Shown: positions 5,523-30,916 of the stretch, in pieces
Position numbering within the stretch: position 1 is the stretch's first letter
How the letters are laid out: the number at the start of each line of letters is the position of its first letter
Origin: an uncultured Methyloversatilis sp.
GTDB lineage: Bacteria > Pseudomonadota > Gammaproteobacteria > Burkholderiales > Rhodocyclaceae
Direction: 5' to 3'
Length of the DNA stretch: 30,916 nt
Assembly: GCA_964555165.1 (NCBI GenBank)
Contig: CAZKRN010000040.1
Coordinates: 1 to 30,916, forward strand
Notes under the pieces: model-generated
The model's database searches: none
Seen by the model: the letters and a program-made list of their open reading frames with translations, nothing else
What the model was told of the DNA's origin: nothing
Program-made: the position numbers and the translations under genes

Positions 5523-5532
5523 GCCGGCCGGA

Positions 5533-8710: not shown

Positions 8711-8788
8711 CGCCCGAGACCCCAAACGGCGCAGCGCCACACAGAGGGCACGCGCATCAGGACATTCACATCGACGGAGGAGAGAATC

Positions 8789-9874: not shown

Positions 9875-9978
9875 CGCCCTTCTCCCCTCTCCCGCATCGG
9901 CGGGAGAGGGGCCGGGGGTGAGGGCACGGCGCTGCGCGCCACGCTCCCGCGCTGACGCAGGCGAGGGTTTGAAGAATC
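9873..9978. repeat. GC-rich composite palindromic intergenic element (REP-like), copy B, between cbbF and cbbP
   Basis: Starts at the cbbF stop codon (cTGAcgccc). Left arm 'CCCCTCTCCCGCATCGGCGGGAGAGGGG' is a perfect 12-bp hairpin. Right arm is degenerate relative to copy A. Same flanks (GACGCCCTTCTCCCCTC ... GGCGCTGCGCGCCAC ... GGCGAGGG(T/A)TTGAAGAA). Confidence 0.65.
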
Positions 9979-10003
9979 GCATCAAGATCGAAAGGATTGT
10001 TCC

Positions 10004-10882: not shown

Positions 10883-10892
10883 GGAGAGCGCG

Positions 10893-13804: not shown

Positions 13805-13830
13805 CCCCTAGCCCCTAGCCCCTAGCCCCC
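13791..13830. repeat. (CCCCTAG)x5 heptanucleotide tandem repeat
   Basis: TAG at 13795, 13802, 13809, 13816 and 13823, exactly 7 nt apart. The stop codon of the GAPDH-like ORF (13802-13804) lies inside the repeat. Because 7 is not a multiple of 3, the array places a TAG in every forward frame. The fba RBS GAGGA follows immediately. Confidence 0.8.
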
Positions 13831-13842
13831 GAGGATTTGACC

Positions 13843-14859
13843 ATGCCCATGATTTCCCTGCGCCAGCTGCTGGATCACGCCGCCGAACACGGCTACGGCG
13901 TACCGGCCTTCAACATCAACAACCTGGAACAGATACAGGCCATCATGCAGGCGGCGCAGAAGGTGAATGCACCGGTCATCCTGCAGGCGTCGGCCGGCGC
14001 GCGGAAGTATGCGGGCGAGCCCTTCCTGCGCCGCATGGTGGAAGCGGCGGCGGAAATGTATCCTGCGCTGCCCATCGTGCTGCACCAGGACCACGGCGCC
14101 AGCCCGGCGGTATGCGTGCAGGCCATCCGCTCGGGCTTCACCAGCGTCATGATGGATGGCTCGCTGATGGAGGACGCGAAGACGCCCGCCAGCTATGAGT
14201 ACAACGTGGACGTGACGCGCCGCGTGGTCGACATCGCGCACGCGGTCGGCGTGTCGGTGGAAGGCGAACTGGGCTGCCTCGGTTCGCTCGAATCCGGCAC
14301 CGCTGGCGAGGAGGACGGCGTCGGCGCAGCCGGCGTGCTCACCCATGACCAGATGCTGACCGACCCGGACCAGGCCGCCGACTTCGTCGCCGCCACCGGC
14401 GTCGATGCGCTGGCCATCGCCATCGGCACCAGTCACGGCGCCTACAAGTTCTCGCGCGAGCCGACCGGCGACATCCTCGCCATCGACCGCATCAAGGCCA
14501 TCCATGCGCGCATCCCGGACACCCATCTGGTCATGCACGGGTCGAGCAGCGTGCCGCAGGACTGGCTGGGCATCATCCGCGCGCACGGCGGCGACATCCG
14601 CGAAACGTACGGCGTGCCGGTCGAGGAAATCCAGGAAGGCATCCGCCACGGCGTGCGCAAGGTGAATATCGACACAGACATCCGCCTTGCCATGACCGGC
14701 GCAATGCGCCGCGCGATGGCGCGCGACCCGTCGGAATTCGACCCGCGCAAGTTCATGAAAGACGCCATGACCGCCGCCCGCGACCTCTGCATCGAGCGCT
14801 TCGAAGCCTTCGGCTGCGCCGGCATGGCCGGGCGCATCGTGCTGCGCAAGGCGGCCTGA
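13843..14859 (+). CDS. cbbA: Fructose/sedoheptulose-bisphosphate aldolase, class II (Calvin-cycle subtype)
   Basis: '[56 protein letters not shown]', '...LHQDHG', 'SVMMDGS' and '[11 protein letters not shown]' are class-II FBA signatures. RBS GAGGA 7 nt upstream. Confidence 0.92.
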
Positions 14860-15008: not shown

Positions 15009-16871
15009 TCAAGCGGTTGCAGCGGTCCCGAGTATGGCCTTCAGCCGCGCCGCGAACCCGCGCTCGGCGGAAGCGGTCACCAGCAGGCGCTCGGTCGAAC
15101 GTGTCATCGCGACATAGAGCAGTTTGGCGTCAGCCGCCACGCGCTCCGTGTCATCCTCTGCTCGCGGCAGCGTGTGGGTGCCGCAAACGACCATGAAGGG
15201 AAACTCCAGCCCCTTGCTGCTGTGCATGGTCATCAGTTTCACTGTGTCTTCCGACGGGCTGAAGCGGCGCTTCGATTGCGAATCGGACAGCCAGTGCACC
15301 GGTATCGATGACGCCTTCAGATAGCGATGCAGGCGGTCGCCGATGTACCTGTCGGGGCAGGCGATACACATGTCGGCCCAGGCCACGCCGCGCTCCGCGT
15401 GCATCTTCTTCAGCGTGCGGGTGATGAGCGCCATTTCGTCGCGGTCGGATCCGACGATGCGCAGCACCGGTGGCGGGCCGCGACGCCCGCTCGACTGAGG
15501 CTCGATCAGTGGCACATGATCGTCGTCGGCATCTGCCGCGGTCAGGTAGACGCGAGCAAAGTCGTAGGCGAAACGAATCACATCCTCGGTGTTGCGATAG
15601 TTCAGCTTGAGTACCGTGCTGCGGCCACGTGCTTGTATGCCCACGCTGGACAGGCTGAAGTCCAGGCCACCACGTTTGCCGTAGATCGACTGCGCGTCGT
15701 CATACAGCATCAGGAAGGAACTGGTTTCCGGGTCGACCATGCCAACGATGAGGCGCAACCACTCCGGCGCGAAATCGTGCCCCTCGTCGATCATCACCGC
15801 ACCGTATTGAGCGCGCGGTATGAGGCCCTTGTCGACGGCGTCGATCACGGTGGATACGAGCTGCTCGAAATAGTCCTTTCCCGTTGCCGGGCGCTCGACG
15901 TGATAGGCCCGCAACTGTTCGCTGCACCAGTCGTGGAAGTGATAGACGCTCACCTTGTCAGCGATACCACGGCTGGCGATAAGGTCACGCAGCCGTGCGG
16001 CCAGCGCGATGTTGTAGCAGAGCACGAGAATGGGTTTCGCGAGCAGCTTGGCCAGATGCAGGCAACGGTAGCCAAGGATGAGCGTCTTGCCGGAGCCGGC
16101 CACGCCATGGATGACGCGGTGCCCGTCGCCCAGGCTGCGGGCCAGCAGTTCCTGCTGCATGTCCATCACCTTGACGAGATCCGGCAGCACGCTATCGGCC
16201 GAAGCTTCGTCATCGACCTCAGCAAACAGGTCCGCCTGCTGATGACCGATGCGCACCTCCGGAAACAGGTGCCAACGGATGCGGTCGATCTGCGGCAGCG
16301 TGAGACTTTGCGGAAAGCTCACGTCAAACATGCTCCACAGCCGCTGCTGAAACTCCTCGGCGTCGCTTGCCTCGCGCATTTCGTCGGCGCAGATGACGCG
16401 ATGTGGCGGCAGAACGTCGCCGAGGTCGGTACCGTCGAACTGCTTGCGCGTCATGCCGCTGAGCACTACGCCATAGCCCCAGGGCAGTACGAGCTTGCCG
16501 CGATATCGACCGTCCTGTTGAACCAGCTGGGGATCGCGCTCCAAGTCGCCGATGAGCTGATAGGCGCACTGCCTTACCTGTTCCAGCGGATTGCTCACCA
16601 CCCGCGGTCCCGCCTCGGTCAGTATCTGCGCCGATACGCGGTCGATGGACTGTATGGTGGCGAGCCGCCAGTCCTTCACTTCCAGCAGCAGCAGGCCACG
16701 GCGGGGGTGCAGGACGATGAAGTCCGAGTACCGCCGGCGGTCGCCGACCGGCATGTCATACCAGCACAGGTAGTCGTCTTCCAGCTTGTCTTCGAGCCGC
16801 TGCGCAAAACGTCGTTCGCCCGCCTGCATTCGGGACGTACACGCGCTGTATGAGGGAATGAGCGTAGCCAT
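15009..16871 (-). CDS. NERD-domain + UvrD/Rep-like superfamily-1 helicase
   Basis: N-terminal 'YLCWYDMPVGDRRRYSDFIVLHPRRGLLLLEVKDW' resembles NERD (nuclease-related domain). Walker A 'GVAGSGKTLILGY', 'AVMIDEGHDF' (Walker B / motif II), C-terminal 'MTMHSSKGLEFPFMVV' (UvrD motif V/VI-like). ATG at 16871, 620 aa. Confidence 0.75.
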   Translation of the reverse strand: MATLIPSYSACTSRMQAGERRFAQRLEDKLEDDYLCWYDMPVGDRRRYSDFIVLHPRRGLLLLEVKDWRLATIQSIDRVSAQILTEAGPRVVSNPLEQVRQCAYQLIGDLERDPQLVQQDGRYRGKLVLPWGYGVVLSGMTRKQFDGTDLGDVLPPHRVICADEMREASDAEEFQQRLWSMFDVSFPQSLTLPQIDRIRWHLFPEVRIGHQQADLFAEVDDEASADSVLPDLVKVMDMQQELLARSLGDGHRVIHGVAGSGKTLILGYRCLHLAKLLAKPILVLCYNIALAARLRDLIASRGIADKVSVYHFHDWCSEQLRAYHVERPATGKDYFEQLVSTVIDAVDKGLIPRAQYGAVMIDEGHDFAPEWLRLIVGMVDPETSSFLMLYDDAQSIYGKRGGLDFSLSSVGIQARGRSTVLKLNYRNTEDVIRFAYDFARVYLTAADADDDHVPLIEPQSSGRRGPPPVLRIVGSDRDEMALITRTLKKMHAERGVAWADMCIACPDRYIGDRLHRYLKASSIPVHWLSDSQSKRRFSPSEDTVKLMTMHSSKGLEFPFMVVCGTHTLPRAEDDTERVAADAKLLYVAMTRSTERLLVTASAERGFAARLKAILGTAATA

Positions 16872-17271
16872 GCCTGGAAGAGGAAGGCGCAAGACAGCCG
16901 GAATGATAGTGGATGTGTTCGAGAGGCTGCGTGGATGCCTAATTGGATGGCGGACCATCCGGTCCTGCGTCGCAAACCGTCCCGATACCGATCGGTGGAA
17001 CGGTGGTGCCGCTGGAGATCGTCCGCTGATCCAACTCGTCGACCCACTACCTTTAAACCTTGCGATCCAGAAACAACGAGACGCTGCAGACCCAGAGCAC
17101 GACCGAGGCCAGCATCGGCACTTGCATTCTGCTCTGGCTGCGCCTCGCTCCAATGCTTCGGCCGCTTCGCCGGACTACAACTTCATCGCCGGTACGATGG
17201 AAGTTCTGGGCCAAGCATGCAATCAACACCCGCCGTCTGTCGGACAATACTTTCGTAACAGAGGATCGCGC

Positions 17272-19788: not shown

Positions 19789-20826
19789 TCAGCCGTCGCG
19801 GCGAGCCACGACCACCTCGGCCCCGGCCGCGGCTTCGTCCAGCGTGATGGAGAGCGGAAGGAAGGCCTCGATCACCTTCACCACGGTACGACAGTGCGAC
19901 GAAACCGTCGTGCACCGGAACCGCGAACCACCCGCCAGCGAGGCCGGGAGCATGATCTGGTCGGCAAGATGTTCACCCACGGGCGCCGTACCGGCCAGAT
20001 AGGCGCGTACCTGGCGCACCAGCGCGACCGCGACCAGCGCCGCCGGTCGGCCGCGTTCGCCGAAGGCCGAGAAGACCTCGGTGGTTGCGTCGCTCGCTAT
20101 CGTCATCTGCAGTACGTTTCCCGGTCCTTCGTTGGCTGGCAAGAGACGGATGTCGCTGCCGATGTCGGGCAATTGCCCGGCCAGGGCGCGGCTCACGGCC
20201 TCGATTTCGCGGCGTGCGACGTCGGCCGGTACGGCAGCGACGATGGACTCGACCCGGGCACCGCGCAGTGTTCCCCGCTCAAGCAGATGCAATGGATCCA
20301 GCCGGGCGACGGGCACCGTGCGGGCGACCAGCCGCCCGCCCCCGGCCGGGTAGAAACCGTGCCTGGGCACGTCGATATCCACGGACGCACCGATGGCACG
20401 CACGTGCGGCACCCAGGCGCGCAGAAGAAAGTCCGCCGTGGGCGCCGCACTGTTGTGCGTGCCACCGCTGATCTCGACCGTGGACGGCGCGTCGGCATGC
20501 CAGAGCGCAGGCAACAGGGTCTGCAGCACCAGCGTCGTACTGCCCGCCGAGCCGATGGCGAATCGATAGTCTCCGCCGCGCACCCGTCCGGGAACGAAGG
20601 TCAGCGCCTGCGACCCCGGCTCAAGCCCGCTGACGCGCGCGCCGCAGATTTCGGCCGACGCACCGACGGCCACCATATGCTGCCTGAGCAGTCCGGGGCG
20701 CGGGCGTCCGGCGCGGATGCGCGTCATGCGGAAGGGGCGTCCGGTGACCATGGACAGGGAAAGTGCGGTACGCAGAATCTGCCCACCCCCTTCGCCGACG
20801 GATCCATCGAGTTCCAGCATGTCCAT
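19789..20826 (-). CDS. rtcA: RNA 3'-terminal phosphate cyclase
   Basis: 'MDMLELDGSVGEGGGQILRTALSLSMVTGRPFRMTRIRAGRPRPGL', then 'EISGGTHNSAAPTADFL' containing the catalytic His of the RtcA family. One nt separates it from the rtcB stop. Confidence 0.9.
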   Translation of the reverse strand: MDMLELDGSVGEGGGQILRTALSLSMVTGRPFRMTRIRAGRPRPGLLRQHMVAVGASAEICGARVSGLEPGSQALTFVPGRVRGGDYRFAIGSAGSTTLVLQTLLPALWHADAPSTVEISGGTHNSAAPTADFLLRAWVPHVRAIGASVDIDVPRHGFYPAGGGRLVARTVPVARLDPLHLLERGTLRGARVESIVAAVPADVARREIEAVSRALAGQLPDIGSDIRLLPANEGPGNVLQMTIASDATTEVFSAFGERGRPAALVAVALVRQVRAYLAGTAPVGEHLADQIMLPASLAGGSRFRCTTVSSHCRTVVKVIEAFLPLSITLDEAAAGAEVVVARRDG

Positions 20827-20827
20827 G

Positions 20828-22039
20828 TCAGCCTTTCACACAGACGATCTGGCTGAGCGTATGGACGACTTCCACAAGCTCGCTCTGGGCCGCCATCACG
20901 GCATCGATGTTCTTGTACGCCATCGGAATCTCGTCGATCACATCGGCGTCCTTGCGGCATTCGACATGCGCCGTCGCCTTGATCTGGTCGTGCACCGAAT
21001 AGCGTCGCTTCGCCTCGTTGCGGCTCATGGTGCGCCCGGCACCGTGACTGCACGAACAGAACGACTGCTCGTTGCCCAGACCGCGGACAATGAAGCTGCG
21101 CGCACCCATGGAGCCGGGGATGATGCCGAGTTCGCCGCGCCTGGCCGATACCGCACCCTTGCGGGTGACCAGCAGGTCGACGCCGAAATGCTCTTCCCGC
21201 TGCACGTAGTTGTGATGGCAGTTCACGGCCTCCACGTCGGCGCGGAAGGGTTTTCCGATTACCGCGCGTGCGGCATCGACGACATGCGCCATCATCACGG
21301 CACGGTTGCGCCGCGCGAAATCCTGCGCCCAGCCGACCGCCTCGACGTAGTCATCGAAGTGCGCACTGCCTTCTTCGAAATAGGCCAGATCGCGGTCGGG
21401 CAGGTTTGCGATGTGTTGCCTCATGTCCTGCTGCGCCAGTTCGATGAAATGGCTTCCGATCGCATTGCCGACGCCACGGGACCCCGAGTGCAGCATGAAC
21501 CACACCTGCTGCGCCTCGTCGACACACACTTCGATGAAGTGATTGCCGGTACCCAGGGTACCCAGGTGCTTGCGGTTGTTCGTGTTGCGCAGACGGGGAT
21601 GCTTTTCGGCCAGACTGTCGAATCCCTGCGCAAGCGCGCCCCACATGGCATCGACTGCGGGAGGCGGCGTGTCCCACGCGCCCTTGTCGCGTCGACCGCG
21701 ACCGACCGTGCGGCCGTGCGGCACGGCGCGCTCGATCGCGCTGCGCAAGGCAAAGAGATTGTCCGGCAGGTCCGAAGCGGCGAGCGTGGTGCGCGCAGCC
21801 ATCATGCCGCAGCCGATATCCACGCCGACCGCGGCGGGAATGATGGCCCCCTGCGTCGGAATCACGCTGCCTATGGTCGATCCCTTGCCCAGATGCACGT
21901 CAGGCATCACCGCAAGATGACCGAATATGAAAGGCATGCGCGCAGTGTTCATGAGTTGGCGACGGGCTTCCTCTTCCACCGGCACACCTTCGGTCCACAT
22001 CTTGATCGGCTTTCCGCCGCTCACTTCGAGTATCTGCAT
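20828..22039 (-). CDS. rtcB: RNA-splicing ligase RtcB (3'-phosphate/5'-OH ligase)
   Basis: 'MPDVHLGKGSTIGSV', 'DIGCGM', 'NHAGRxxSR-like CSHGAGRTMSR' and 'HNYV' are RtcB metal and GMP-binding motifs. Start at ATG 22039 ('MQILEV...') with AAGGA RBS. The ORF-track start at 22126 is an upstream extension. Confidence 0.92.
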   Translation of the reverse strand: MQILEVSGGKPIKMWTEGVPVEEEARRQLMNTARMPFIFGHLAVMPDVHLGKGSTIGSVIPTQGAIIPAAVGVDIGCGMMAARTTLAASDLPDNLFALRSAIERAVPHGRTVGRGRRDKGAWDTPPPAVDAMWGALAQGFDSLAEKHPRLRNTNNRKHLGTLGTGNHFIEVCVDEAQQVWFMLHSGSRGVGNAIGSHFIELAQQDMRQHIANLPDRDLAYFEEGSAHFDDYVEAVGWAQDFARRNRAVMMAHVVDAARAVIGKPFRADVEAVNCHHNYVQREEHFGVDLLVTRKGAVSARRGELGIIPGSMGARSFIVRGLGNEQSFCSCSHGAGRTMSRNEAKRRYSVHDQIKATAHVECRKDADVIDEIPMAYKNIDAVMAAQSELVEVVHTLSQIVCVKG

Positions 22040-22122
22040 GATCCTGTCCTTTGTGCCGACCGAGGGCTTCGTGCCCCCGGCCCCGCTGCCCCATGCAGCG
22101 GGGCTCACTACGATCGCGGGCG

Positions 22123-23262
22123 TCAACCCGCCTTTATGGTCACCAGTCCGTCCAGCACCTGGTCGAGGCCACCGAACACGGATATCCGGTCGATACGCTC
22201 GGCCACCCGCTCCAGCGTCTCCAGCTCCTTCAGGCGCAAGGCGGTCGGGTTGTCCTCCATGACCTTGGCCGTGTTCAAGAGCGAACGGGTCGCGGCGGTT
22301 TCCTCGCGGCGCCGTATCACATTGGCCTGGGCCGACTTCTCGGCCTCGACCACCTGGGCCAGGATGGTCTTCATCTCGCCCGGCAGCACGATGTCCTTCA
22401 CGCCCGCGCTGTGCAGTTCGATGCCGAATCCGGCCATCCGCTTCAGCACATGTGCATTGACCACATCATCGATCAACTGCTTGTTCTCCAGCAGCTCGTC
22501 GAGCGTGCGGGTGCCCACGGCCTCGCGCAGTCCGAGCTGCAGTTCGCGGTACAGATGCTCTGCAGGACGGGCCAGCTTCTCGTGCGCCTGCAGCACGTCG
22601 GTGTAGCGCCAGGTCGCGGAAAGATTGATGCGCAGCCCGACCTTGTCGCGCGACAGGATTTCCTGCCCGCTCACCTCCATGCTCTGCAGGCGGGTATCCA
22701 CCAGTTCCACCTGCACATCGCGGTTGAAGCGCCAGAACGCCTCGACACCGGACGGCGTCAGTCGCTGGATGCAGCCGTCCTTCCGGAGCAGGCCCACGTG
22801 GTAGGGCGGAACCTGGACCACGAGGATGCCAGCGATGCCCAGCACGGGTCGACCACGCAAGGACGGCTGCAGAAGGTGGCTGGCAAGCGAAGCCGGCACC
22901 GCATCGGCTTCGCGCAGATCGACCCGTTCGAGTCGGTGGGTGGTCAGGCCCGACCACATCACGCGCCGCGAACCCGGCGGCAGCACCTCGACCAGCACAT
23001 CGTTCTCGTAGCGCAGACCCGCCTGATCCTCGCCCAGCACGAAATCGTGAAAGTGCATGCGGGCCTGTTCAGGTTCGCGGGCCAGCAGGTAGTCCACAAC
23101 CGCAAAGTCGACGTAAGGCTGTTCGGCCGACACGGTCTGTACCGAAAGGCGACGCAACGGATTCCAGAACACATAGCGGCCGGGTTCGAGCACGCGCTCG
23201 AAGTCTCCGTCGCGCAGCAACACGCCGCGTTCGTTCTTCTTCACCACATGACGCTTCAACAT
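22123..23262 (-). CDS. SPFH/band-7 (slipin-like) domain protein with a roughly 200-aa N-terminal region of unknown function; no N-terminal TM segment
   Basis: C-terminal half 'SRDKVGLRINLSATWRYTDVLQAHEKL...GTRTLDELLENKQLIDDVV...GIELHSAGVKDIVLPGEMKTILAQVVEAEKSAQANVIRRREETAATRS' is a typical SPFH core plus a coiled-coil tail. ATG 23262 is preceded by GGGGAGAAGAG. It is the first gene of the sigma54-promoted rtc operon. Confidence 0.75.
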   Translation of the reverse strand: MLKRHVVKKNERGVLLRDGDFERVLEPGRYVFWNPLRRLSVQTVSAEQPYVDFAVVDYLLAREPEQARMHFHDFVLGEDQAGLRYENDVLVEVLPPGSRRVMWSGLTTHRLERVDLREADAVPASLASHLLQPSLRGRPVLGIAGILVVQVPPYHVGLLRKDGCIQRLTPSGVEAFWRFNRDVQVELVDTRLQSMEVSGQEILSRDKVGLRINLSATWRYTDVLQAHEKLARPAEHLYRELQLGLREAVGTRTLDELLENKQLIDDVVNAHVLKRMAGFGIELHSAGVKDIVLPGEMKTILAQVVEAEKSAQANVIRRREETAATRSLLNTAKVMEDNPTALRLKELETLERVAERIDRISVFGGLDQVLDGLVTIKAG

Positions 23263-23492
23263 TTCTCTTCTCCCCAAGTGATACCGGTCATCACCGGCCC
23301 GGCGAACCCGCTGGCGACCCGCGCGGGGAGGCAGGCAACTGCAGACCGTGGCCCTAGGGCGTCGCGACGTGCGCGGCGATCGCGGACAGGTGCTGCCGGT
23401 CATCTGCCTTGCCGCATGGGCGGTCATGCTGGCTGGCCGGGCCGGCGTCGGCTGCTTGCGCGAGCCGCGACCGGCGGGTATTGCAACAACAG

Positions 23493-23640
23493 CTACAGGA
23501 GCAGGAGTCGAACCTGCGACACACCGCTTTCGCGGCTGCTCTACCTCTGAGCTATCCAGAAGGGCGTGCGGGGAATCGAACCCACGCGAACTCGCCAGAG
23601 CACGCATCCAGATCGCATTCACGGCTGCGGCATGCGCGCT
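23493..23640 (-). ncRNA. tRNA-like element(s) in the rtc operon leader (candidate Y-RNA / tRNA-mimic module)
   Basis: Minus-strand reading: '...GCGTGGGTTCGATTCCCCGCACGCCC | TTCTGGA-TA-GCTC-AGAGGTA-GAGC-A-GCCGCGAAAGCGG-TGTGTC-GCAGG-TTCGACT-CCTGC-TCCTGTAGC'. Perfect D-arm (GCTC/GAGC) with A14 and G18G19. Perfect T-arm (GCAGG/CCTGC) with a TTCGA loop. The anticodon arm is replaced by a CCGC-GAAA-GCGG tetraloop hairpin. A second, bulged T-arm-like hairpin (GGGTTCGATTCCCC) lies immediately 5'. No acceptor stem satisfying tRNA rules was found, so this is not a canonical tRNA gene. Confidence 0.4.
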
Positions 23641-23730
23641 GACAACAGGCACGAACCCGGTCATCGCGCACCAGAGGGCCTGAACACCCGTCTCGTGGGC
23701 ACTTGCAGTGAAGTGCGATCACAGCCTCTT

Positions 23731-23746
23731 CAGCCAGATGCGTGCC
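23731..23746 (-). promoter_or_regulatory. Sigma-54 (-24/-12) promoter of the SPFH-rtcB-rtcA operon
   Basis: Minus strand reads TGGCACG-catc-TGGCT, against the consensus TGGCACG-N4-TTGCW. GG and GC are at the correct 10-nt spacing, with a single mismatch at -14. Lies about 470 nt upstream of the SPFH start, opposite rtcR, whose product is a sigma54 activator. Confidence 0.55.
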
Positions 23747-23771
23747 AGGTCAAAATTTGCTGCGAAGAAGG

Positions 23772-23823
23772 GGGGCAACATATTGATTGGAAATGTGTTT
23801 ATCTCTTCATGTGGGTTGTTGCC
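23772..23823. promoter_or_regulatory. Inverted repeat GGGCAACA-N36-TGTTGCCC upstream of the sigma54 promoter; candidate RtcR upstream activating sequence
   Basis: 8-bp perfect arms, seen in sequence, about 30-90 bp upstream of the -24 element on the activator side. Classical enhancer position for bEBPs. A second dyad GCACTT-GCAGTG-AAGTGC at 23698-23715 lies in the transcribed leader. Confidence 0.35.
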
Positions 23824-23886
23824 CTGCGCATCCATGCCGACCATTGATAGAATTCAGTATCGCTACTTATATTTCTGGATAGCCTT

Positions 23887-25476
23887 GTGAAACGCATCGT
23901 GGTAATCGGCTTTCTCGGTACCCAGCTCGACTACGGCGGCCGGGGCAGTCAGCGTTGGGAGAAATGGAGACCCACCGTAAGCCTCTGCCAGCAACCGGAT
24001 CTGGTCGTGGGCCGGCTGGAGCTGCTGCACGATGCACGCAGCCGGGGCCTGGCCGAACGGGTGAAATCCGATATCGCATCGGTGTCGCCCGAAACCGACG
24101 TCAGGCGTGTCGAGCTCGAGTTGCGCGACCCGTGGGACTTCGAGGAGGTCTATACCGCCCTTCATGACTTCGCACGTGGCTACGCCTTCGACGGAGACAC
24201 GGAGGACTATCTGATTCACATCACCACCGGTACCCACGTTGCGCAGATCTGCTGGTTCCTTCTGGCGGAGTCGCGCTACATGCCGGCGCGCTTGTTGCAG
24301 ACCTCGCCGCCGCGCAAGAAGGACGGTGCCGACCCGGCCGGGCGTTACGAGGTGATCGATCTCGATCTGTCGCGCTACGACAAGATCGCCCAGCGCTTTC
24401 GTCGCGATCACGACGACAACCAGAGCTTTCTCAAGTCCGGTATCGCGACACGCAACAGCGACTTCAACGCGATGATCGAGCAGATCGAGCGCGTGGCGGG
24501 CGTATCACGTGCGCCGATGTTGCTGGTCGGCCCGACCGGCGCGGGCAAGTCCTTTCTTGCCCGACGCATTTACGAACTCAAGCGCTCTTGTCAGCAGCTC
24601 GCCGGTGCGTTCGTCGAAGTGAACTGCGCGACGCTGCGTGGCGATTCGGCAATGTCCGCGTTGTTCGGTCACGTCAAGGGCGCGTTCACCGGAGCCCAGG
24701 GCGATCGCGCCGGGCTGCTGCGCGCGGCCGACAAAGGCCTGCTGTTCCTGGACGAGATCGGAGAGCTTGGCGCGGACGAACAGGCCATGCTGCTCAAGGC
24801 CATCGAAGACAGGCGCTTCCTGCCCTTCGGCGGCGATCGCGAAACGAGCAGCGACTTCCAGTTGATCGCCGGCACGCACAGGGATCTTCGTCTGTGGGTG
24901 GAACAGGGACGCTTCCGCGAAGACCTCTACGCACGGATCAATATGTGGACCTTCGATCTCCCCGGCCTGTCGAGGCGTCGCGAAGACATCGAGCCCAACC
25001 TCGACTTCGAACTTGAGAAGTTCGCCCTGGAGCACGGGCGGCAGGTGCGATTCAACGCCGAGGCACGCCGTCGCTTTCTCGCCTGGGCCACCTCGGCCGA
25101 CGCGATCTGGCGTGGCAACTTTCGCGAACTCGGTGCCGCGGTCACCCGCATGGCAACGCTCGCCCGCAGCGGGCGCATCACGGAAGAACTTGTCGTCGAA
25201 GAGCTCGCGCGTTTGCGTACAAGCTGGGCGGCGCCGGCCGTGCAGGATCGTGTGGCCACCGTACTGGGCAGCGCCGCCGACAGACTCGACCTGTTCGATC
25301 GTTGCCAGCTTGATACCGTGCTGCGGGTCTGCAGCGACTCTGCCAGCCTGTCCGAAGCGGGGAGAAGGCTGTTCTCGGAATCGCGGCAGGCCAAGAAGCA
25401 GGCGAACGACGCCGACCGCCTGCGCAAGTATCTGGCGCGCTTCGGCCTCGACTGGGAGGCGGCCTCGCGCCGCTGA
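23887..25476 (+). CDS. rtcR: RtcR: CARF-domain, sigma54-dependent AAA+ transcriptional activator
   Basis: N-terminal 'MKRIVVIGFLGTQLDYGGRG' (CARF/Rossmann-like as in E. coli RtcR). Central 'LLVGPTGAGKSFLARRIY' Walker A, 'GAFTGA' sigma54-contact motif, 'LLFLDEIGEL' Walker B, 'RFREDLYARIN' R-finger region, C-terminal HTH. GTG start at 23887. Divergent from the sigma54 promoter. Confidence 0.9.
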   Translation: MKRIVVIGFLGTQLDYGGRGSQRWEKWRPTVSLCQQPDLVVGRLELLHDARSRGLAERVKSDIASVSPETDVRRVELELRDPWDFEEVYTALHDFARGYAFDGDTEDYLIHITTGTHVAQICWFLLAESRYMPARLLQTSPPRKKDGADPAGRYEVIDLDLSRYDKIAQRFRRDHDDNQSFLKSGIATRNSDFNAMIEQIERVAGVSRAPMLLVGPTGAGKSFLARRIYELKRSCQQLAGAFVEVNCATLRGDSAMSALFGHVKGAFTGAQGDRAGLLRAADKGLLFLDEIGELGADEQAMLLKAIEDRRFLPFGGDRETSSDFQLIAGTHRDLRLWVEQGRFREDLYARINMWTFDLPGLSRRREDIEPNLDFELEKFALEHGRQVRFNAEARRRFLAWATSADAIWRGNFRELGAAVTRMATLARSGRITEELVVEELARLRTSWAAPAVQDRVATVLGSAADRLDLFDRCQLDTVLRVCSDSASLSEAGRRLFSESRQAKKQANDADRLRKYLARFGLDWEAASRR

Positions 25477-27054: not shown

Positions 27055-27659
27055 GGGTGTCCTTGGAAAGAGGGGGTTGTGGTCTGTTGCGCTACCGCGT
27101 ACGGCAACAGCTTCTGCACGATAGCGAAGAACGTCAGTGTCGCCTGGTCGCTCTTGTCGGAGTCGACGCGCAAGGCAAACAGGTCGCGCACCTTCTGGTA
27201 GAAGCGCTGTTCCGAGGCACGGATGTCCCGGATGCGCGCCAGTATTTCATCGAAGTGGTCCGGCCGGCCATCCGGGTTCTTCAGGCGCTCGTCATCCAGC
27301 GCGAAGCCCTTGAGCAGGTATTCCTTGAGGACTGCGGGCGCCTAGCGGCGGAACTGCACGCCGCGCGGTGAGCGCACCTGATAGCCCACGGCGAGGATGG
27401 CGTCGAGGTTGTAGAGCGCGACCGGGCGCTTCACCTCGCGTGAACCTTCGATCTGAACTACCGAGGAATCCTCGGTAGTTGCCTCGCGACTCAACTCCGC
27501 ATCTTCAAAGATGTTCTTCATATGCAGGCCGACGTTGTCGGTCGTCACATCGAACAGCTCCGCCATTTCCCGCTGCGTGAGCCAGACGGTCTGATCCATG
27601 GCCCGCAACTTGATCTGGCTGCGCCCGTCTTCGGTCAAGTAGAGAATCAGTTCGCTCAT
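27054..27659 (-). pseudogene. RhuM-family (virulence protein RhuM / Fic-associated) gene interrupted by an in-frame amber codon and C-terminally short
   Basis: N-terminus 'MSELILYLTEDGRSQIKLRAMDQTVWLTQREMAELFDVTTDNVGLHMKNIFEDAEL...ALYNLDAILAVGYQVRSPRGVQFRR' then TAG (27344-27342). It continues in the same frame with '[57 protein letters not shown]...' to TGA at 27053-27051. RhuM proteins read '...SHRGTQFRQWATQRLREYLIKGF', so the amber replaces a conserved Trp (TGG to TAG). Total 201 codons, against about 330 in full-length RhuM. Confidence 0.6.
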
Positions 27660-27892
27660 GATGTTGTTTGCGGTACAGGTTCTGCTGCAATCACGGCGTG
27701 GGTTCGGCGGCGCGTCGCCGCCGCGATTGAAGCTGTTGCGTGCGTGCAGCCAAGCTCAGGCATGCGTTGTTCGACGGTCAGAATGCACTGAAACCTGTCG
27801 AGCAAATCGACACATGCGAAATTCGTGTTTAAAAACACGTCGAAAATCGACACGTCTTCCGGACGTGTCGATCACGTCGACGCGTTCCGCGC
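27660..27892. promoter_or_regulatory. Palindrome-dense intergenic region between fic (3' end) and the RhuM-like gene (5' end); putative promoter/operator
   Basis: CGTGTTTAAAAACACG perfect 16-bp palindrome (27826-27841). CGACACG-tcttccgga-CGTGTCG (27852-27874). Repeated AAATCGACAC half-sites (27807-27816, 27845-27854). Lower GC than flanks. Confidence 0.4.
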
Positions 27893-28969
27893 TCAACTGG
27901 CCAGTTCGTTGAACAGGGCTTCGTTGATGTAGTACTTCTCGCGGCCATGCTTCTGTTCGCGCAGAATGCCCAGCCCGGCAAGCGTCTGCAGGTAGGTCGA
28001 GGCGGTCTGCCGCTTGGCGATGCCTGCTTCGACGACGAACTGGATCTTGGTGTACGGGTGCCGGAAGATGACCTCGACCAGATCCTTGCTGTAGATCGCC
28101 GGCGCTTCGGTCTGCACCCGTGCGCGCACACTTTCCATCAGGGCACGGATCCGCTGCACCTGGTCGTGGGTCTGCTGCGCGGTCGATTCGATGGCGCGCA
28201 GCATGAACAGAATCCAGTTTTCCCAATCCTGCGACTCGGTGACGCGGCGCAAACCTTCGTAGTAGGCCGCACGGTTGGCGATGATGTAGCGCGACAGGAA
28301 CAGAACCGGAATGTCGAGCAGCCCCTTTTCGACCAGATAGAGCAGATTGATGATGCGCCCGGTACGGCCATTGCCATCCGGAAACGGGTGGATGGCCTCG
28401 AACTGGTAATGCATCACCGCCATCTTCACCAGCGGGTCTACACCGTCTTCGGCGTGGATGAACTGTTCGAGATTGCCCAGCTTGTCGCGGATGACGGCCT
28501 CGCCGACCGGCGGGGTATAGATCACCTGGCCCGCGTCGTTCTTCAGCGCAGTACCCGGAATCGCCCGGATGCCCAGTTCGGTCTGCTTGATCAGGCGGAC
28601 GATTTCGACGAACAGATTGGTCGTCAGCGGCCGTGCCTTCAGCGCCTGAAAGCCGTGATAAAGCGCTTCGCGGTAGCGCAGCACCTCATTCGTGTGCGGA
28701 TCGCTCTTGCCTTCGGGATCGGCATCGGCCCGATACAGCTCATCGTTGGTGGTAACGATGTTCTCGATCTCGGACGACAGACGGGCTTCCTGCAGCGCGA
28801 TGCTGCTGATCAGCATGCCCTGGTTCGGGATCTGTGCCGCCAGTCCGCGCAGGTTGGCCAGCACACGATTTGCGCTGATCGCCTGCTTCAGAACGGCCTT
28901 GGTTTCGAGTTCGACCGGCGGGGGAAGCGAGGGCAGGTCGTTGTAGGGCTGCGCGCGATCGAACGGCAT
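27893..28969 (-). CDS. Fic-family protein (AMPylase), class II with an N-terminal inhibitory helix
   Basis: Active-site motif 'HPFPDGNGRTGR' matches HPFx(D/E)GNGRxxR. N-terminal 'SSEIEN' matches the autoinhibitory (S/T)xxxE(G/N) motif. 358 aa with a C-terminal wHTH-like extension ('YLQTLAGLGIL'). Confidence 0.88.
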   Translation of the reverse strand: MPFDRAQPYNDLPSLPPPVELETKAVLKQAISANRVLANLRGLAAQIPNQGMLISSIALQEARLSSEIENIVTTNDELYRADADPEGKSDPHTNEVLRYREALYHGFQALKARPLTTNLFVEIVRLIKQTELGIRAIPGTALKNDAGQVIYTPPVGEAVIRDKLGNLEQFIHAEDGVDPLVKMAVMHYQFEAIHPFPDGNGRTGRIINLLYLVEKGLLDIPVLFLSRYIIANRAAYYEGLRRVTESQDWENWILFMLRAIESTAQQTHDQVQRIRALMESVRARVQTEAPAIYSKDLVEVIFRHPYTKIQFVVEAGIAKRQTASTYLQTLAGLGILREQKHGREKYYINEALFNELAS

Positions 28970-29168
28970 TCAGCGACCCTTGAACGAAGACGTGTCTAAA
29001 AATAGCTAACTTTTAGACATATGGCGAGTGATCTGTATAGAAATCGGCATTTTCTATACGTATGCACAGTGGCCATTGGCCTGCCACGGGTTCTGCCGTC
29101 TCGGCCAAACTTCACCAACGAGCCTCCGCAAAACCCGGGGCGATTCAGTCTGCGTCGTCAAGGGTTTG
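28970..29168. promoter_or_regulatory. fic upstream region with two dyads (GTCTAAAA-N9-TTTTAGAC at 28984-29008; TATAGAAA-N7-TTTCTATA at 29026-29048)
   Basis: Perfect 8-bp inverted repeats in an AT-rich context immediately upstream of the fic start codon. Candidate operator or promoter elements. Confidence 0.4.
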
Positions 29169-30101
29169 TCAGGCAACTCCGTTGTATGTCTCTGGGACAG
29201 CAATGATTGGGCCAGTGAGTGCTTTGGTCGGATATATCAAGAGCAACACGTTGTAGGGCGTTTTAAAGGCCTCGCCCAGACACTCATGGGTGTCTCCGTT
29301 GCGGTCGCTGTAAAGAAGCTGCGTTGGCCTGGTCATTTTCCTTCCGATCGGCAGTAGGTCGCCCAAGGCGTGCGAAACGTCGATACGCTCAGCTACTGGA
29401 ATACCAAATTGTTGTGCGAATGAAGGCGAAGCCTCAATGCGACGCACCTCTGCGTACGGCGGAAGACCCGGTAGCAACTGGATTGGCTCCAAGATGTAGA
29501 GGAGGCATGCTCGGTGATTAGTTCTCGCGAATTCTCGAGCCGACGCATATACCGAAGCACCAAATTTCTTGGAAAGCGCGATAGGTGTCTTTACGGCCAT
29601 CGGCATGTCCGAGGCCATCTCCTTATAGGCGGTCCCCTGAAACAGCGCGTAGCGTGCAAAATTGTTAGCCTCGCGCTCAAACTGGTCGGCGACGGTTGGG
29701 GCCAAGGTCTGCTCGCAGTCTTGGAAGAGCCGAAACACTTTCCGATGGGTCGGCAATTCATGGTGCCCCGTCTCATGCAGTTTTAGAAAAGTCTGCTTAG
29801 ACGCGCCGACGCTGTCATCGATGTGGATGATTTGCTCGTTCGCGTCATAGAGACCCAGAACCTTGGACAGGGCGGACTTGAGCGTCTGCGCCGCCTCGAC
29901 GGTTTTCCTTTTCACGAACGCTAGGAAGGCGGCAGCGTCAAACATCTCCTTGGGTGCCACACGCAGCTTCGCTGCACTGAGGATGTCCTCAACCGGCGTG
30001 GGAAAGCGCCCCCATGCTGATGCCCGATTAAGCAGATCCTGTGCCTGTCGTTCGACAGCGGCCAGTTCAAAGGATTGAAGACTGCTGTCGTCGGGCTTCA
30101 T
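29169..30101 (-). CDS. ImmA/IrrE-family (M78) zinc metallopeptidase
   Basis: 'FLKLHETGHHELPTH' contains HExxH. About 310 aa. Start overlaps the stop of the upstream XRE gene (ATGA), the typical HTH-ImmA / CapH-CapP-like arrangement. Confidence 0.8.
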   Translation of the reverse strand: MKPDDSSLQSFELAAVERQAQDLLNRASAWGRFPTPVEDILSAAKLRVAPKEMFDAAAFLAFVKRKTVEAAQTLKSALSKVLGLYDANEQIIHIDDSVGASKQTFLKLHETGHHELPTHRKVFRLFQDCEQTLAPTVADQFEREANNFARYALFQGTAYKEMASDMPMAVKTPIALSKKFGASVYASAREFARTNHRACLLYILEPIQLLPGLPPYAEVRRIEASPSFAQQFGIPVAERIDVSHALGDLLPIGRKMTRPTQLLYSDRNGDTHECLGEAFKTPYNVLLLIYPTKALTGPIIAVPETYNGVA

Positions 30102-30454
30102 CAGGTGCGTTTCCTCGAGCGGATATGCTTAAGAAAATCTAGGAGTTCAGCTTCCTCGTCAGGGCTCAGGTTGTGCTCGGCAAACGTCGCGATTCGGCCG
30201 TGCCGCTGCCCTTCACTGCGCGTGGCAGCGGCAGGCAGGTAGCCCGCGAGTTCCATCAGCGTGATGTACTCGATTCTGTAGATCTCAGCCAGCTTATTGA
30301 GGATGGTCGGACTTGGCTGCTGGATCTTCCCATTCTCAAGCTGACTAAGGTAGGCGTTCGAAACTTCCTTGCCACTGGCCTCTTCGACCTGCCTAAGCGA
30401 CATCTTCCGATCGTTACGGATAGAGGCGAGGTACTGCCCTAAGGTGACTTTCAC
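30101..30454 (-). CDS. XRE-family helix-turn-helix transcriptional regulator
   Basis: 'LGQYLASIRNDRKMSLRQVEEASGKEVSNAYLSQLENGK' is a Cro/CI-type HTH. 117 aa. Apparent GTG start at 30454. Translationally coupled to the ImmA-like gene. Confidence 0.8.
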   Translation of the reverse strand: MKVTLGQYLASIRNDRKMSLRQVEEASGKEVSNAYLSQLENGKIQQPSPTILNKLAEIYRIEYITLMELAGYLPAAATRSEGQRHGRIATFAEHNLSPDEEAELLDFLKHIRSRKRT

Positions 30455-30667
30455 TGCTTGCCCCGAGTAGCGACAGCACCCGTGACCTTCACGACTGCCC
30501 GCTTTTCACGAGTTTAGCTTCCGCCGCTAAATTTTCAACGCGCGCTTAGCATGCTTGACAAACTTAGCATGCGTTCTTAAAGTTGCACCAAGTGCTCAGC
30601 AGCATCCCGCAGAGAGAGCGCGAGACCCAAGTGCGCGGCTTGTCGCGCGATCGAATGGAAGAGATAT
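30455..30667. promoter_or_regulatory. Divergent promoter/operator region: tandem CTTAGCATGC repeats overlapping a plus-strand sigma70-like promoter (TTGACA-17-TAAAGT)
   Basis: CTTAGCATGC at 30544-30553 and 30563-30572, each containing the palindrome AGCATGC(T). TTGACA at 30555-30560, a 17-nt spacer, TAAAGT at 30578-30583, oriented toward the small ORF at 30668. The XRE gene is transcribed divergently from the same region. Confidence 0.45.
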
Positions 30668-30865
30668 ATGAGCGATCAATTTGAAGAAGACGTAGAGGAC
30701 GTCTACGCCGCTGTGTCGAGTGGGCGTCGCGTTCGTGAGCATGGGCCATTCGGTATCCGGATAGGCGATCAATCCATGCAGTTCGTACCGAAGGTTGTCG
30801 ATGATCCGGTGGTGACTGGCATCCAAATCTTGGCGGTCGCTAACGCACGTCCGGCGAACGATTGA
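30668..30865 (+). CDS. Small hypothetical protein (65 aa), acidic N-terminus
   Basis: ATG preceded by GGAAGAG about 7 nt upstream and by the promoter above. No recognisable motif. Another ATG with an open frame begins near 30907 and runs off the window. Confidence 0.3.
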   Translation: MSDQFEEDVEDVYAAVSSGRRVREHGPFGIRIGDQSMQFVPKVVDDPVVTGIQILAVANARPAND

Positions 30866-30916
30866 GCTTGCCCCCGAAAATCATATCCCTTGCTGAGTGA
30901 TTCACAATGCAGGCAA

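What the first reader, a model, noticed from the sequence alone, without database searches (positions are those of the whole stretch)
29169..30865. CapH/CapP-like HTH-metallopeptidase pair with operator-like CTTAGCATGC repeats and a divergently promoted small ORF heading out of the window
XRE-HTH (117 aa) and ImmA/IrrE (HExxH) genes are translationally coupled (ATGA). Their upstream region holds two copies of CTTAGCATGC, palindromic core AGCATGCT, flanking a plus-strand TTGACA-17-TAAAGT promoter that drives a 65-aa ORF and whatever lies beyond 30907. HTH + ImmA-like pairs are known signal-responsive regulators of phage-defence operons, where DNA-damage or ssDNA triggers protease cleavage of the repressor. 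The regulated cargo may start at the window's right edge.
Basis: partly seen in the sequence, partly recalled or inferred. Interest (0 to 1): 0.6.

Follow-up and report, generated by a model that had tools for sequence, protein, structure and literature searches.

The report
Defence-operon switch whose cargo is broken
This is a known type of DNA-damage-responsive repressor/protease pair (CapH/CapP) that normally controls a bacterial ubiquitin-like "Bub" operon, but in this window an insertion sequence has cut the operon's first gene after codon 65, so the "small ORF" is a gene stump; the find is ordinary.

Summary
There is a 117-aa XRE repressor (30101-30454, minus strand) and a 310-aa M78 metallopeptidase with an HExxH motif (29169-30101, minus strand). 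Their stop and start codons overlap. An exact 10-mer occurs twice around a TTGACA-17-TAAAGT promoter, and a 65-aa ORF runs rightward.

The pair matches the PADLOC capH and capP profiles. An AlphaFold2 model of the peptidase hits IrrE/PprI and CapP structures first.

Public contigs carry the identical regulators next to an intact divergent operon: a 249-aa multi-ubiquitin protein, an E2-E1 fusion and a DUF6527 protein. That is a Type II Bub operon, a published CapH+CapP association. The window matches this allele only up to base 30863. From T30863 onward the sequence aligns with the terminal repeat of IS3-family insertion sequences. So the 65-aa ORF is a truncated bubA, its stop codon comes from the IS, and the window ends inside the IS.

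Comparison of about 90 related loci shows a conserved pair of back-to-back promoters with mirrored operator-like sites. The first repeat is not conserved.

Verdict: a new member of a known kind, decayed in this window. Interest is low.

The parts
29169..30101 (-). capP-like gene. It encodes a 310-aa ImmA/IrrE (M78) zinc metallopeptidase with H109-E110-x-x-H113, E142 and invariant C129, plus a confidently modelled C-terminal alpha/beta (GAF/PAS-like) domain at about residues 160-295.
   Evidence: Pfam Peptidase_M78 E = 5e-6. PADLOC capP E = 1e-11. Best PDB sequence hit is 7T5T 'CapP toxin', E = 0.08. Invariant residues come from 38 homologues. AF2 model: mean pLDDT 68, C-terminal half 85-93. 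The top five Foldseek PDB hits are PprI/IrrE and Thauera CapP, probability 1.0.
30101..30454 (-). capH-like gene. It encodes a 117-aa XRE-family HTH repressor with a C-terminal extension. Its stop overlaps the capP start by one base (TGATG).
   Evidence: Pfam HTH_3 E = 9e-11. PADLOC capH E = 1e-7 covering residues 4-112 and profile positions 6-99 of 103. PDB hits include CapH NTD 7T5U and DdrO. It lies directly upstream of capP in 79 of 80 species-representative genome (GTDB) loci.
30511..30538 (-). Promoter of capH-capP: TTGAAA (30538-30533), 16 nt, TAAACT (30516-30511). The family consensus is TTGACA-17-TAAAAT.
   Evidence: Promoter scan, 9 of 12 matches. Both hexamers are conserved at fixed positions in 71-81 related loci.
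30526..30545 (.). Left operator-like site: GCT-N7-CAACGC-GCGC (family consensus GCT-N7-TCAAGCRYGC). It mirrors the right site and overlaps the -35 and spacer of the capH promoter.
   Evidence: Position-specific counts after re-anchoring on TCAAGC: GCT in 50-62 of 71, TCAAGC..GC near-invariant.
30545..30554 (+). It is specific to this allele, filling the normally variable spacer between the two -35 elements.
   Evidence: Relatives read TTGATTTGC, TTGATGTGC, TTCCAATGC or TCATAATGC here. Information content is near zero at these positions.
30552..30572 (+). Right operator-like site TGCTTGACAAACTTAGCATGC.
   Evidence: Found in 93 of 97 loci at 14 or more of 21 matches. TGCTTG, AGC and GC are 80-81 of 81 invariant. 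It is the only TGCT-N10-AGCA in the window.
30578..30583 (+). -10 hexamer TAAAGT of the bubA promoter.
   Evidence: Promoter scan, 10 of 12 matches with the -35 at 30555 and a 17-nt spacer. An A at hexamer position 2 is conserved in relatives.
30592..30648 (+). bubA 5' leader with two predicted hairpins (30592-30621 and 30633-30648).
   Evidence: RNAalifold on six close relatives gives 16 pairs kept, with no compensatory changes. Support is weak.
30668..30862 (+). bubA' pseudogene: the first 65 codons of a 249-aa multi-ubiquitin (Ubl) gene.
   Evidence: 100% identical to residues 1-65 of the 249-aa BubA in L001 and L002. Weak Pfam Multi_ubiq hit, E = 5.5e-4, covering profile positions 9-31 of 69 only. 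DNA identity with the intact allele stops at 30863.
30863..30916 (+). Left terminal 54 nt of an IS3-family insertion sequence (TGAGCTTGCCCCCGAAAATC...). Its first bases supply the TGA stop of the 65-aa ORF. The window ends inside it.
   Evidence: blastn matches in 69 Burkholderiales/Pseudomonas plasmid records, often several per record, mostly 80-95% identity. An annotated 'IS3 family transposase' starts 12 nt after the match in Polaromonas and is adjacent in pTB30. Homology begins exactly at T30863. Independent contigs stop at 30891/30892.

Best explanation
Window 29169-30667 is the regulatory module of a mobile five-gene cassette, bubE<-bubBD<-bubA | capH->capP. [quoted passage not shown]

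**Shown**
- Contigs with identical CapH and CapP proteins (their shared DNA is 99.9-100% identical to the window) carry the intact operon.
- In this window bubA is interrupted after codon 65 by an IS3-family element, whose end forms the last 54 bases of the window.
- The control region holds two back-to-back sigma-70-type promoters, each overlapped by one arm of a mirrored, phylogenetically conserved site: GCT-N7-TCAAGC on the left and GCTTGA-N7-AGC on the right.

**Inferred from characterised CapH/CapP and DdrO/IrrE**
- CapH dimers (possibly a tetramer) bind the two sites and repress both promoters.
- DNA damage or phage replication produces single-stranded DNA. This binds CapP between its peptidase and C-terminal domains, releases the C129 'cysteine switch' from the zinc, and lets CapP cut CapH in its C-terminal dimerisation region.
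- CapH then loses DNA binding and both promoters fire.

**Consequence here**
Derepression can only yield a 65-residue BubA stump and transcription into the IS. The defence cargo is inactivated while the sensor/repressor pair is still intact. The event is recent and polymorphic, because both alleles occur in public read sets with near-identical flanking DNA.
For: - **Regulator identity:**
- **Intact allele:** L001 and L002 carry Multi_ubiq (249 aa), DUF6791+ThiF (395 aa) and BubE (154 aa).
- **Bub catalytic residues:** in the intact allele's E2-E1 fusion, S106, K108, R219 and Y342 are invariant across 20 homologues. S106, R219 and Y342 are the residues mutated in E. coli BubBD (PMC11601596).
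- **Same gene order in relatives:** all relatives with 69-86% identical CapP, in Rhizobacter, Roseateles, Variovorax and metagenomes, in unrelated flanking contexts.
- **Wider family:** of the 79 GTDB loci that have CapH, 52 have a divergent BubA-like gene by tblastn. Of 10 others scanned, 4 have Multi_ubiq and 2 have Prok-E2_E (3 of these 6 hits are below Pfam's curated cut-off).
- **Published link:** 168 of 544 Bub operons have CapH+CapP (PMC11601596).
- **Breakpoint and IS identity:**
- **Promoters and operator conservation:**
- **CapH oligomers needed for DNA binding:** bioRxiv 10.1101/2022.04.27.489752.
- **ssDNA / cysteine-switch mechanism:** PMC13228613.
Against: - This CapP clade is remote in sequence from the characterised CapP. 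7T5T scores only E = 0.08 by phmmer, the family profile does not hit it at all, and identity in the fold alignment is 14% at TM 0.44-0.48.
- The N-terminal peptidase half of the model has low confidence.
- The PADLOC capP match covers only profile positions 9-160 of 242.
- No binding, cleavage or induction was or can be tested here.
- Which conserved bases are operator and which are merely the -35 hexamers cannot be separated by sequence alone.
- No anti-phage activity has yet been shown for any Bub operon (PMC11601596).
- Whether the rest of bubA, bubBD and bubE survive beyond the IS is unknown. No contig crosses the IS.
Confidence: 0.82

Rival explanations
1. The pair is an ImmR/ImmA-type switch of a prophage or integrative element, or a toxin-antitoxin pair, and is unrelated to the neighbouring ubiquitin-like gene.
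For: - The Pfam families are the same as for ImmR/ImmA (HTH_3 + Peptidase_M78).
- PDB entry 7T5T is labelled 'CapP toxin'.
- The best PDB hit of the HTH protein is an 'Immunity repressor protein' (8BNY).
- The region has low GC (0.55 against 0.66) and lies among mobile or defence genes.
Against: - The pair keeps the same divergent partner, a Ubl/E2/E1 operon, across many phyla while everything else around it changes.
- The shared control region is conserved as one unit.
- None of the ORFs scanned in the window has an integrase, excisionase or phage-structural domain.
Confidence: 0.05
2. After losing its cargo, the pair is retained because it now controls something else: the downstream SoFic gene by read-through from the capH promoter, or the IS3 transposase by read-through from the bubA promoter.
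For: - capH, capP and SoFic are co-oriented with only a 199-nt gap, and no intrinsic terminator was predicted in 28950-30916.
- The IS end is the left end, which is followed by a same-strand transposase in Polaromonas. The bubA promoter therefore points into the transposase genes.
- CapH and CapP are undamaged.
Against: - SoFic is not next to capP in any relative.
- Contigs with the intact allele break between capP and SoFic.
- The insertion looks too recent for selection to have acted: identical regulator proteins and 99.9-100% identical DNA between alleles.
- There are no expression data.
Confidence: 0.1
3. The junction at 30863 is an assembly chimera, or a deletion end-point rather than an IS insertion, and the 65-aa ORF is an artefact of that.
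For: The window ends 54 nt after the junction, so the other side is not seen. The tail gave no exact 24-mer hit in the genome, metagenome or viral collections.
Against: - Six independent Logan contigs from several sequencing runs carry exactly the same junction.
- Three stop 28-29 nt past it and the window stops 54 nt past it. That is what k = 31 and k = 55 assemblers do at the edge of a multi-copy repeat (inference).
- The tail aligns from its first base with annotated IS3 ends.
- An IS-mediated adjacent deletion of the rest of the operon is still possible and would not change the main reading.
Confidence: 0.03

Closest known systems
CapH/CapP of the E. coli MS115-1 Type III CBASS operon, with the Thauera sp. 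K11 CapP structure 7T5T (Lau et al. 2022, bioRxiv 10.1101/2022.04.27.489752; PMC13228613)
   Same: - XRE HTH repressor followed by an HExxH metallopeptidase, with the gene pair divergent from the controlled operon and sharing its promoter region.
- PADLOC capH and capP profile matches.
- A cysteine in the loop after HExxH, and a Glu third zinc ligand, align with the Thauera residues.
- Full-length fold match to CapP and IrrE.
   Different: - Only about 14% identity in the fold alignment; phmmer E = 0.08.
- The cargo is a ubiquitin-like conjugation operon, not CBASS.
- The conserved operator overlaps the -35 and spacer of both promoters, rather than being a 22-bp site upstream of the -35.
- The window protein has Y35 where E. 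coli CapH has W35, by residue number (no alignment was made).
- Nothing has been tested biochemically.
Type II Bub operon (BubA, BubBD, BubE) of E. coli ZDHYS365; 168 of 544 Bub operons carry CapH+CapP (PMC11601596, PMC11601603)
   Same: The intact allele (L001, L002) has the same three genes in the same order. These are a multi-ubiquitin Ubl; a DUF6791+ThiF E2-E1 fusion with invariant S106, K108, R219 and Y342; and a DUF6527 BubE. The divergent CapH+CapP matches the published association.
   Different: In this window only codons 1-65 of bubA remain before an IS3 element, and bubBD and bubE are not in the window. BubA of this clade ends in ...TPTDKS rather than Gly.
DdrO/IrrE (PprI) of Deinococcus
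   Same: The best structural matches of the peptidase model are PprI 8SLN and IrrE 3DTE. DdrO is among the HTH hits. The logic is the same: an ssDNA-activated protease cleaves a dimeric XRE repressor.
   Different: DdrO/IrrE controls a chromosomal DNA-repair regulon through many dispersed operators, and its genes are not a divergent cassette. IrrE lacks the cysteine switch.
IS3-family insertion sequences of Burkholderiales (for example those annotated in Polaromonas sp. P1-6 CP087967 and pTB30 NC_016968)
   Same: The terminal repeat starts with TG and is 82-92% identical over 36-55 nt in the listed hits. It is multi-copy, and a transposase gene follows 12 nt after the matched end.
   Different: Only 54 nt are in the window. 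The transposase, the other end and the target duplication are not visible. No exact copy was found in the collections searched.

Membership tests
CapP (ImmA/IrrE-type, ssDNA-activated metallopeptidase) | HExxH zinc site with a downstream Glu ligand | tested here: met
   H109, E110, H113 and E142 are invariant in 38 homologues. E142 aligns with the Glu of 'IEAQAD' in 7T5T. Pfam Peptidase_M78 scores above its cut-off.
CapP (ImmA/IrrE-type, ssDNA-activated metallopeptidase) | Cysteine-switch loop after the HExxH helix (present in many but not all CapPs) | tested here: inconclusive
   C129 is invariant and falls within one residue of the Thauera 'FQCSD' cysteine in the phmmer alignment. However, this loop (residues 111-133) has pLDDT below 50 in the model.
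CapP (ImmA/IrrE-type, ssDNA-activated metallopeptidase) | Three-domain build: peptidase, helical linker, C-terminal GAF domain | tested here: met
   The five best Foldseek PDB hits are PprI/IrrE and CapP, aligned over 252-322 columns at probability 1.0. The next hits to the C-terminal part are PAS/LOV/GAF domains. The C-terminal half is confident. TM is only 0.35-0.48.
CapP (ImmA/IrrE-type, ssDNA-activated metallopeptidase) | Cleaves its partner repressor only when bound to single-stranded DNA | not testable with these tools
   Needs purified proteins, poly-T ssDNA and a cleavage assay.
CapH (XRE repressor cleaved by CapP) | N-terminal XRE HTH plus a C-terminal oligomerisation region | tested here: met
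   HTH_3 covers residues 9-62. The PADLOC capH profile is matched over positions 6-99 of 103, protein residues 4-112. The fold of the C-terminal part was not modelled.
CapH (XRE repressor cleaved by CapP) | Encoded with capP upstream of, and divergent from, the controlled operon; binds the shared promoter region | tested here: inconclusive
   The gene arrangement is met in the window and in all relatives examined. A conserved operator-like site overlaps both promoters. Binding itself was not tested.
Type II Bub operon | [quoted passage not shown] | tested here: not met
   The window has only codons 1-65, and the Multi_ubiq hit is below the cut-off. In the intact allele L001 the 249-aa protein carries PF14452.
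Type II Bub operon | BubBD: an E2-E1 fusion with a catalytic Ser (plus Lys/His), an adenylation Arg and a crossover-loop Tyr | tested here: not met
   Absent from the window. Present in the intact allele, with DUF6791+ThiF and invariant S106, K108, R219 and Y342.
Type II Bub operon | BubE: a DUF6527/PF20137 protein | tested here: not met
   Absent from the window. Present in L001 and L002 and in all 69-86% relatives.
IS3-family insertion sequence | Terminal inverted repeat starting 5'-TG and similar to known IS3 ends | tested here: met
   Homology with ends that flank annotated IS3 transposases starts at T30863 G30864.
IS3-family insertion sequence | orfA/orfB transposase with programmed frameshift, and a 3-4 bp target duplication | not testable with these tools
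   These lie beyond the window's end, and no public contig crosses the junction.
ImmR/ImmA switch of phages and ICEs | Located in, and controlling, an integrative element with adjacent integrase/excisionase or lysogeny genes | tested here: not met
   No such domains were found among the ORFs scanned in the window. The conserved neighbour is a Ubl operon.

The most novel reading that the evidence does not exclude
The IS3 element sits in the same orientation as bubA, directly downstream of a strong promoter that CapH/CapP would open on DNA damage. Transcription into the transposase genes, and hence transposition, could then have become DNA-damage- or phage-inducible. Alternatively, IS insertion and loss at bubA could act as a population-level on/off switch for a costly Bub system, since both alleles coexist in public data.
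Probability: 0.1. Interest if true: 0.45.

Novelty: new member of a known kind. Interest (0 to 1): 0.22.

Why it matters
It matters little for new biology. CapH/CapP regulation of ubiquitin-like (Bub) operons has been in the literature since 2022-2024.

Three modest points are useful:
- **Annotation trap.** A 'small ORF' next to a defence regulator can be the stump of the cargo gene. Here the IS itself supplies the stop codon, and the contig ends in the IS.
- **Operator prediction.** About 90 loci from many phyla share one mirrored two-promoter, two-operator design (GCT-N7-TCAAGC ... GCTTGA-N7-AGC). This gives a concrete, testable operator prediction for the Bub-associated CapH clade.
- **Natural comparison.** Intact and IS-disrupted alleles with identical regulators coexist in nature. 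That offers a natural pair for asking what a Bub operon costs or provides, which is still unknown.

Tried and rejected
- **Exact search for the tail.** A 24-mer from the 53-nt tail (a second, 28-mer pattern in viral contigs) gave no hit in species-representative genomes, JGI metagenomes or viral contigs. The whole tail gave none by megablast in plasmids. Only the more sensitive blastn mode identified it.
- **What lies beyond the IS.** Looking up the 65-aa product returned only short contigs that all stop in the IS.
- **Tail as downstream flank.** I checked whether the tail is the far flank of the operon, which would mean a simple deletion. It is absent from L001 and L002, which extend about 520-545 nt past bubE.
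- **Same element at the window's left end.** I checked whether the tail sequence recurs anywhere else in the window, its left end included. It does not.
- **Family profile against the PDB.** A profile of the CapP clade found nothing relevant. The single-sequence hit to 7T5T is weak, so family placement rests on the PADLOC profile and on fold.
- **Leader hairpins.** They showed no compensatory changes, so I make no claim about them.
- **Other fragments.** No other bubA, bubBD or bubE fragments were found in the window.
- **Bub paper supplement.** The supplementary table of the Bub paper is not held.
Full report
**1. Observation**

The stated features are all present.
- A 117-aa ORF (30101-30454, minus strand, GTG start) is an XRE-type HTH protein. 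Pfam HTH_3 scores E = 9e-11.
- It is followed by a 310-aa ORF (29169-30101, minus strand) with HETGH at residues 109-113. Pfam Peptidase_M78 scores E = 5e-6, above the curated cut-off.
- The two genes overlap by one base: TGATG, with the stop at 30103-30101 and the start at 30101-30099. This is not a four-base ATGA overlap, a small correction.
- CTTAGCATGC occurs exactly twice in the window, at 30545-30554 and 30563-30572.
- TTGACA (30555), 17 nt, TAAAGT (30583) is the best promoter-like site in the region, 10 of 12 matches.
- The 65-aa ORF 30668-30865 exists.

**2. The regulators**

- Against PADLOC, the HTH protein matches capH (E = 1e-7) over nearly the whole profile. The peptidase matches capP (E = 1e-11) over the peptidase and linker part.
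- By sequence alone the peptidase is remote from solved structures. The best hit is 7T5T 'CapP toxin' at E = 0.08, and a profile of the clade finds nothing.
- In the 7T5T alignment, the HExxH motif, a Cys in the following loop and a Glu ligand line up with the Thauera CapP residues described in the literature. H109, E110, H113, C129 and E142 are invariant in 38 homologues.
- An AlphaFold2 model is mediocre overall: pLDDT 68, with a poor N-terminal half and a C-terminal half at 85-93. Its five best PDB matches are nevertheless PprI/IrrE (8SLN, 3DTE, 3DTI, 8SLM) and CapP (7T5T). They align over the full length at probability 1.0 and TM 0.35-0.48.
- I therefore place the pair in the CapH/CapP-DdrO/IrrE class as a distant branch.

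**3. The cargo**

An exact-sequence look-up of the peptidase found 13 public contigs.
- Two of those shown (L001, L002) have, divergent from capH, a 249-aa Multi_ubiq protein, a 395-aa DUF6791+ThiF protein and a 154-aa BubE/DUF6527 protein.
- That is the published Type II Bub operon (BubA, BubBD, BubE; PMC11601596).
- In the intact allele's fusion protein, S106, K108, R219 and Y342 are invariant across 20 homologues. S106, R219 and Y342 are the residue numbers whose mutation abolishes conjugation in E. coli BubBD.
- Relatives with 69-86% identical peptidase, in Rhizobacter, Roseateles, Variovorax and metagenomes, all show the same five-gene arrangement in otherwise unrelated surroundings. These include a Tn7-like element, a ParB/ArdC/RadC region and housekeeping genes.
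- Relatives at 62-64% identity control a different Multi_ubiq...ThiF operon.
- Of 80 species-representative genome loci (52-87% identity, many phyla), 79 have capH directly upstream of capP, and 52 of those have a divergent BubA-like gene by tblastn.
- Of 10 further first divergent ORFs scanned, 4 are Multi_ubiq and 2 are Prok-E2_E, though 3 of these 6 hits fall below Pfam's curated cut-off.
- The link is already published. The 2022 CapH/CapP paper mentions ubiquitin-related operons, and the Bub paper counts CapH+CapP at 168 of 544 Bub operons.

**4. What happened in this window**

- The window is 99.9-100% identical to L001 and L002 from 29015 to 30863 and then diverges.
- The intact gene continues ...AND-FLVFQ... 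whereas the window reads ...AND-stop. So the 65-aa ORF is bubA codons 1-65.
- The tail gave no exact hits in four collections. With sensitive blastn it matches 69 Burkholderiales and Pseudomonas plasmid records, often several places per record, mostly at 80-95% identity.
- In Polaromonas the match is followed 12 nt later by an annotated IS3-family transposase on the same strand. In pTB30 it abuts one as well.
- The multiple alignment shows homology starting exactly at T30863 (TGAGCTTGCCCCC...), with unrelated flanks.
- The IS end therefore supplies the TGA stop of the ORF.
- Three independent Logan contigs of this allele stop at 30891 or 30892, and the window stops at 30916. I read this (inference) as k = 31 and k = 55 assemblies breaking at the edge of a multi-copy repeat that begins at 30862-30863.
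- No contig crosses the IS. Whether the remainder of the operon survives beyond it is unknown.
- No other Bub fragment is present in the window.

**5. The control region**

I aligned the window with five relatives, then anchored 93 of 97 available loci (81 unique sequences) on the core. This gives a family design: two back-to-back promoters.
- The bubA promoter has a consensus -35 of TTGACA, a 17-nt spacer and an A/T-rich -10. The window has TTGACA-17-TAAAGT.
- The capH promoter has consensus TTGACA-17-TAAAAT. The window has TTGAAA-16-TAAACT at 30538-30511.

Conservation goes beyond the hexamers.
- On the right, TGCTTGACAtACTTAGCAyGC has TGCTTG, AGC and GC at 80-81 of 81, even though AGC..GC lies in the spacer, where promoters are normally free to vary.
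- On the left, GCT-N7-TCAAGCryGC is its mirror image (GCT 50-62 of 71; TCAAGC..GC near-invariant).
- The TCAAGC-to-TGCTTGA offset is 18 nt in 57 of 81 sequences.
- Anchoring on a reference pattern inflates the counts somewhat. Still, a random 300-nt stretch would rarely reach 14 of 21 matches, let alone near-invariance.
- Each arm is a TGCT-N10-AGCA-type pseudo-palindrome. The only such site in the window is 30552-30569.

Characterised CapH binds DNA only as a dimer, and a tetramer binds more tightly. I therefore infer one dimer per arm, blocking both promoters.

The first (30545-30554) occupies the variable spacer between the two -35 elements and is absent even from the relative whose peptidase is 87% identical. 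The conserved left site in the window is 30536-30545 (CAACGCGCGC).

**6. Mechanism (inferred, not tested)**

- By analogy with CapH/CapP and DdrO/IrrE, single-stranded DNA made during DNA damage or phage replication binds CapP.
- This opens the cysteine switch (candidate C129) and allows cleavage of CapH in its C-terminal region. The repressor then falls off and both promoters fire.
- In the intact allele this would induce the Ubl conjugation machinery. Its biological target is unknown, and no anti-phage activity has yet been shown for it.
- In this window the output is a stump plus transcription into the IS.

**7. Context**

- The window is chromosomal and probably from a Burkholderiales bacterium. 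This is an inference from the nearest named homologues (Rhizobacter, Roseateles, Variovorax) and from the hosts of the IS-end matches.
- The genes scanned include a cbb (Calvin cycle) cluster, a NERD-UvrD helicase, a histidine kinase and the RtcR/RtcB/RtcA operon.
- GC content falls from about 0.66 overall to 0.55-0.61 after 27 kb. That stretch holds a RhuM fragment, a full-length SoFic (PADLOC E = 4e-122) and the CapP-CapH-bubA' remnant, a small decaying defence island.

**8. Rivals**

- An ImmR/ImmA or toxin-antitoxin reading is disfavoured by the constant Ubl-operon partner and by the absence of integrase or phage domains among the ORFs scanned.
- An assembly artefact is disfavoured by six independent contigs with the same junction and by the base-exact start of IS homology.
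- A re-purposed regulator, acting on SoFic or on the IS transposase by read-through, cannot be excluded and is the only mildly novel possibility.

**9. Verdict**

The regulator class and the idea of a defence cargo are right. The 'small ORF' and 'cargo beyond the edge' are wrong: it is a truncated bubA followed by an IS3 end. This is a new (and broken) member of a known kind, and interest is low.

Noticed in passing
window 27893-28969 (-): Full-length SoFic-type Fic/DOC protein (HPFPDGNGRTGR motif). Pfam Fic_N, Fic and SoFic-like_C; PADLOC SoFic E = 4e-122. It lies 199 nt downstream of capP on the same strand. It is not a neighbour of capP in any relative.
   Followed up: partly
window 27342-27755 (-): Only the N-terminal about 46 of 252 profile positions of a RhuM-family protein are present. 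This is probably a gene remnant at the left edge of the low-GC island.
   Followed up: no
window 28993-29018, between SoFic and capP: An AT-rich inverted repeat, GTCTAAAA-ATAGCTAAC-TTTTAGAC. The two contigs carrying the intact Bub allele both end inside it, at window 29015/29016. It may mark the boundary of the mobile five-gene cassette.
   Followed up: no
window 30880-30907 (-): A promoter-like site, TTGTGA-16-TATGAT, inside the IS3 end faces outward toward bubA' and capH (9 of 12 matches). It could add IS-driven transcription of capH-capP.
   Followed up: no
window 30592-30621 and 30633-30648 (+): Two predicted hairpins in the bubA 5' leader are conserved in five close relatives, without compensatory changes.
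   Followed up: partly
L001 2168-2917 (-), and relatives: BubA of this clade ends in ...TPTDKS. Related Ubls end in GGSS, GASS or NRS rather than a C-terminal Gly. This hints that C-terminal processing may be needed before adenylation.
   Followed up: no
L014-L017 and L028: CapH/CapP relatives at 62-64% identity sit next to a different operon: Multi_ubiq, then two or three small unannotated ORFs, then a short ThiF-only E1, with no BubE. The same regulator clade serves more than one kind of ubiquitin-like system.
   Followed up: partly
window 2101-14859: A Calvin-cycle (cbb) cluster. It includes a LysR regulator (divergent), RuBisCO large subunit 3467-4933, a CbbX-like AAA protein, two HAD phosphatases, FBPase, phosphoribulokinase, transketolase and class II aldolase. 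The host is likely a facultative autotroph.
   Followed up: no
window 15009-17153 (-) and 19789-25476: A NERD nuclease domain fused to a UvrD-like helicase. Separately, an RtcR / SPFH (Band 7) / RtcB / RtcA RNA-repair cluster, with the SPFH gene between rtcR and rtcB.
   Followed up: no
L009 7982-14294; L011 8656-13618: The same capP-capH-bub cassette lies next to a Tn7-like TniQ/TniB/rve module in Variovorax. In metagenomic contigs it lies next to RadC/ParB/ArdC-type conjugative-element genes. The cassette rides on different mobile elements.
   Followed up: no
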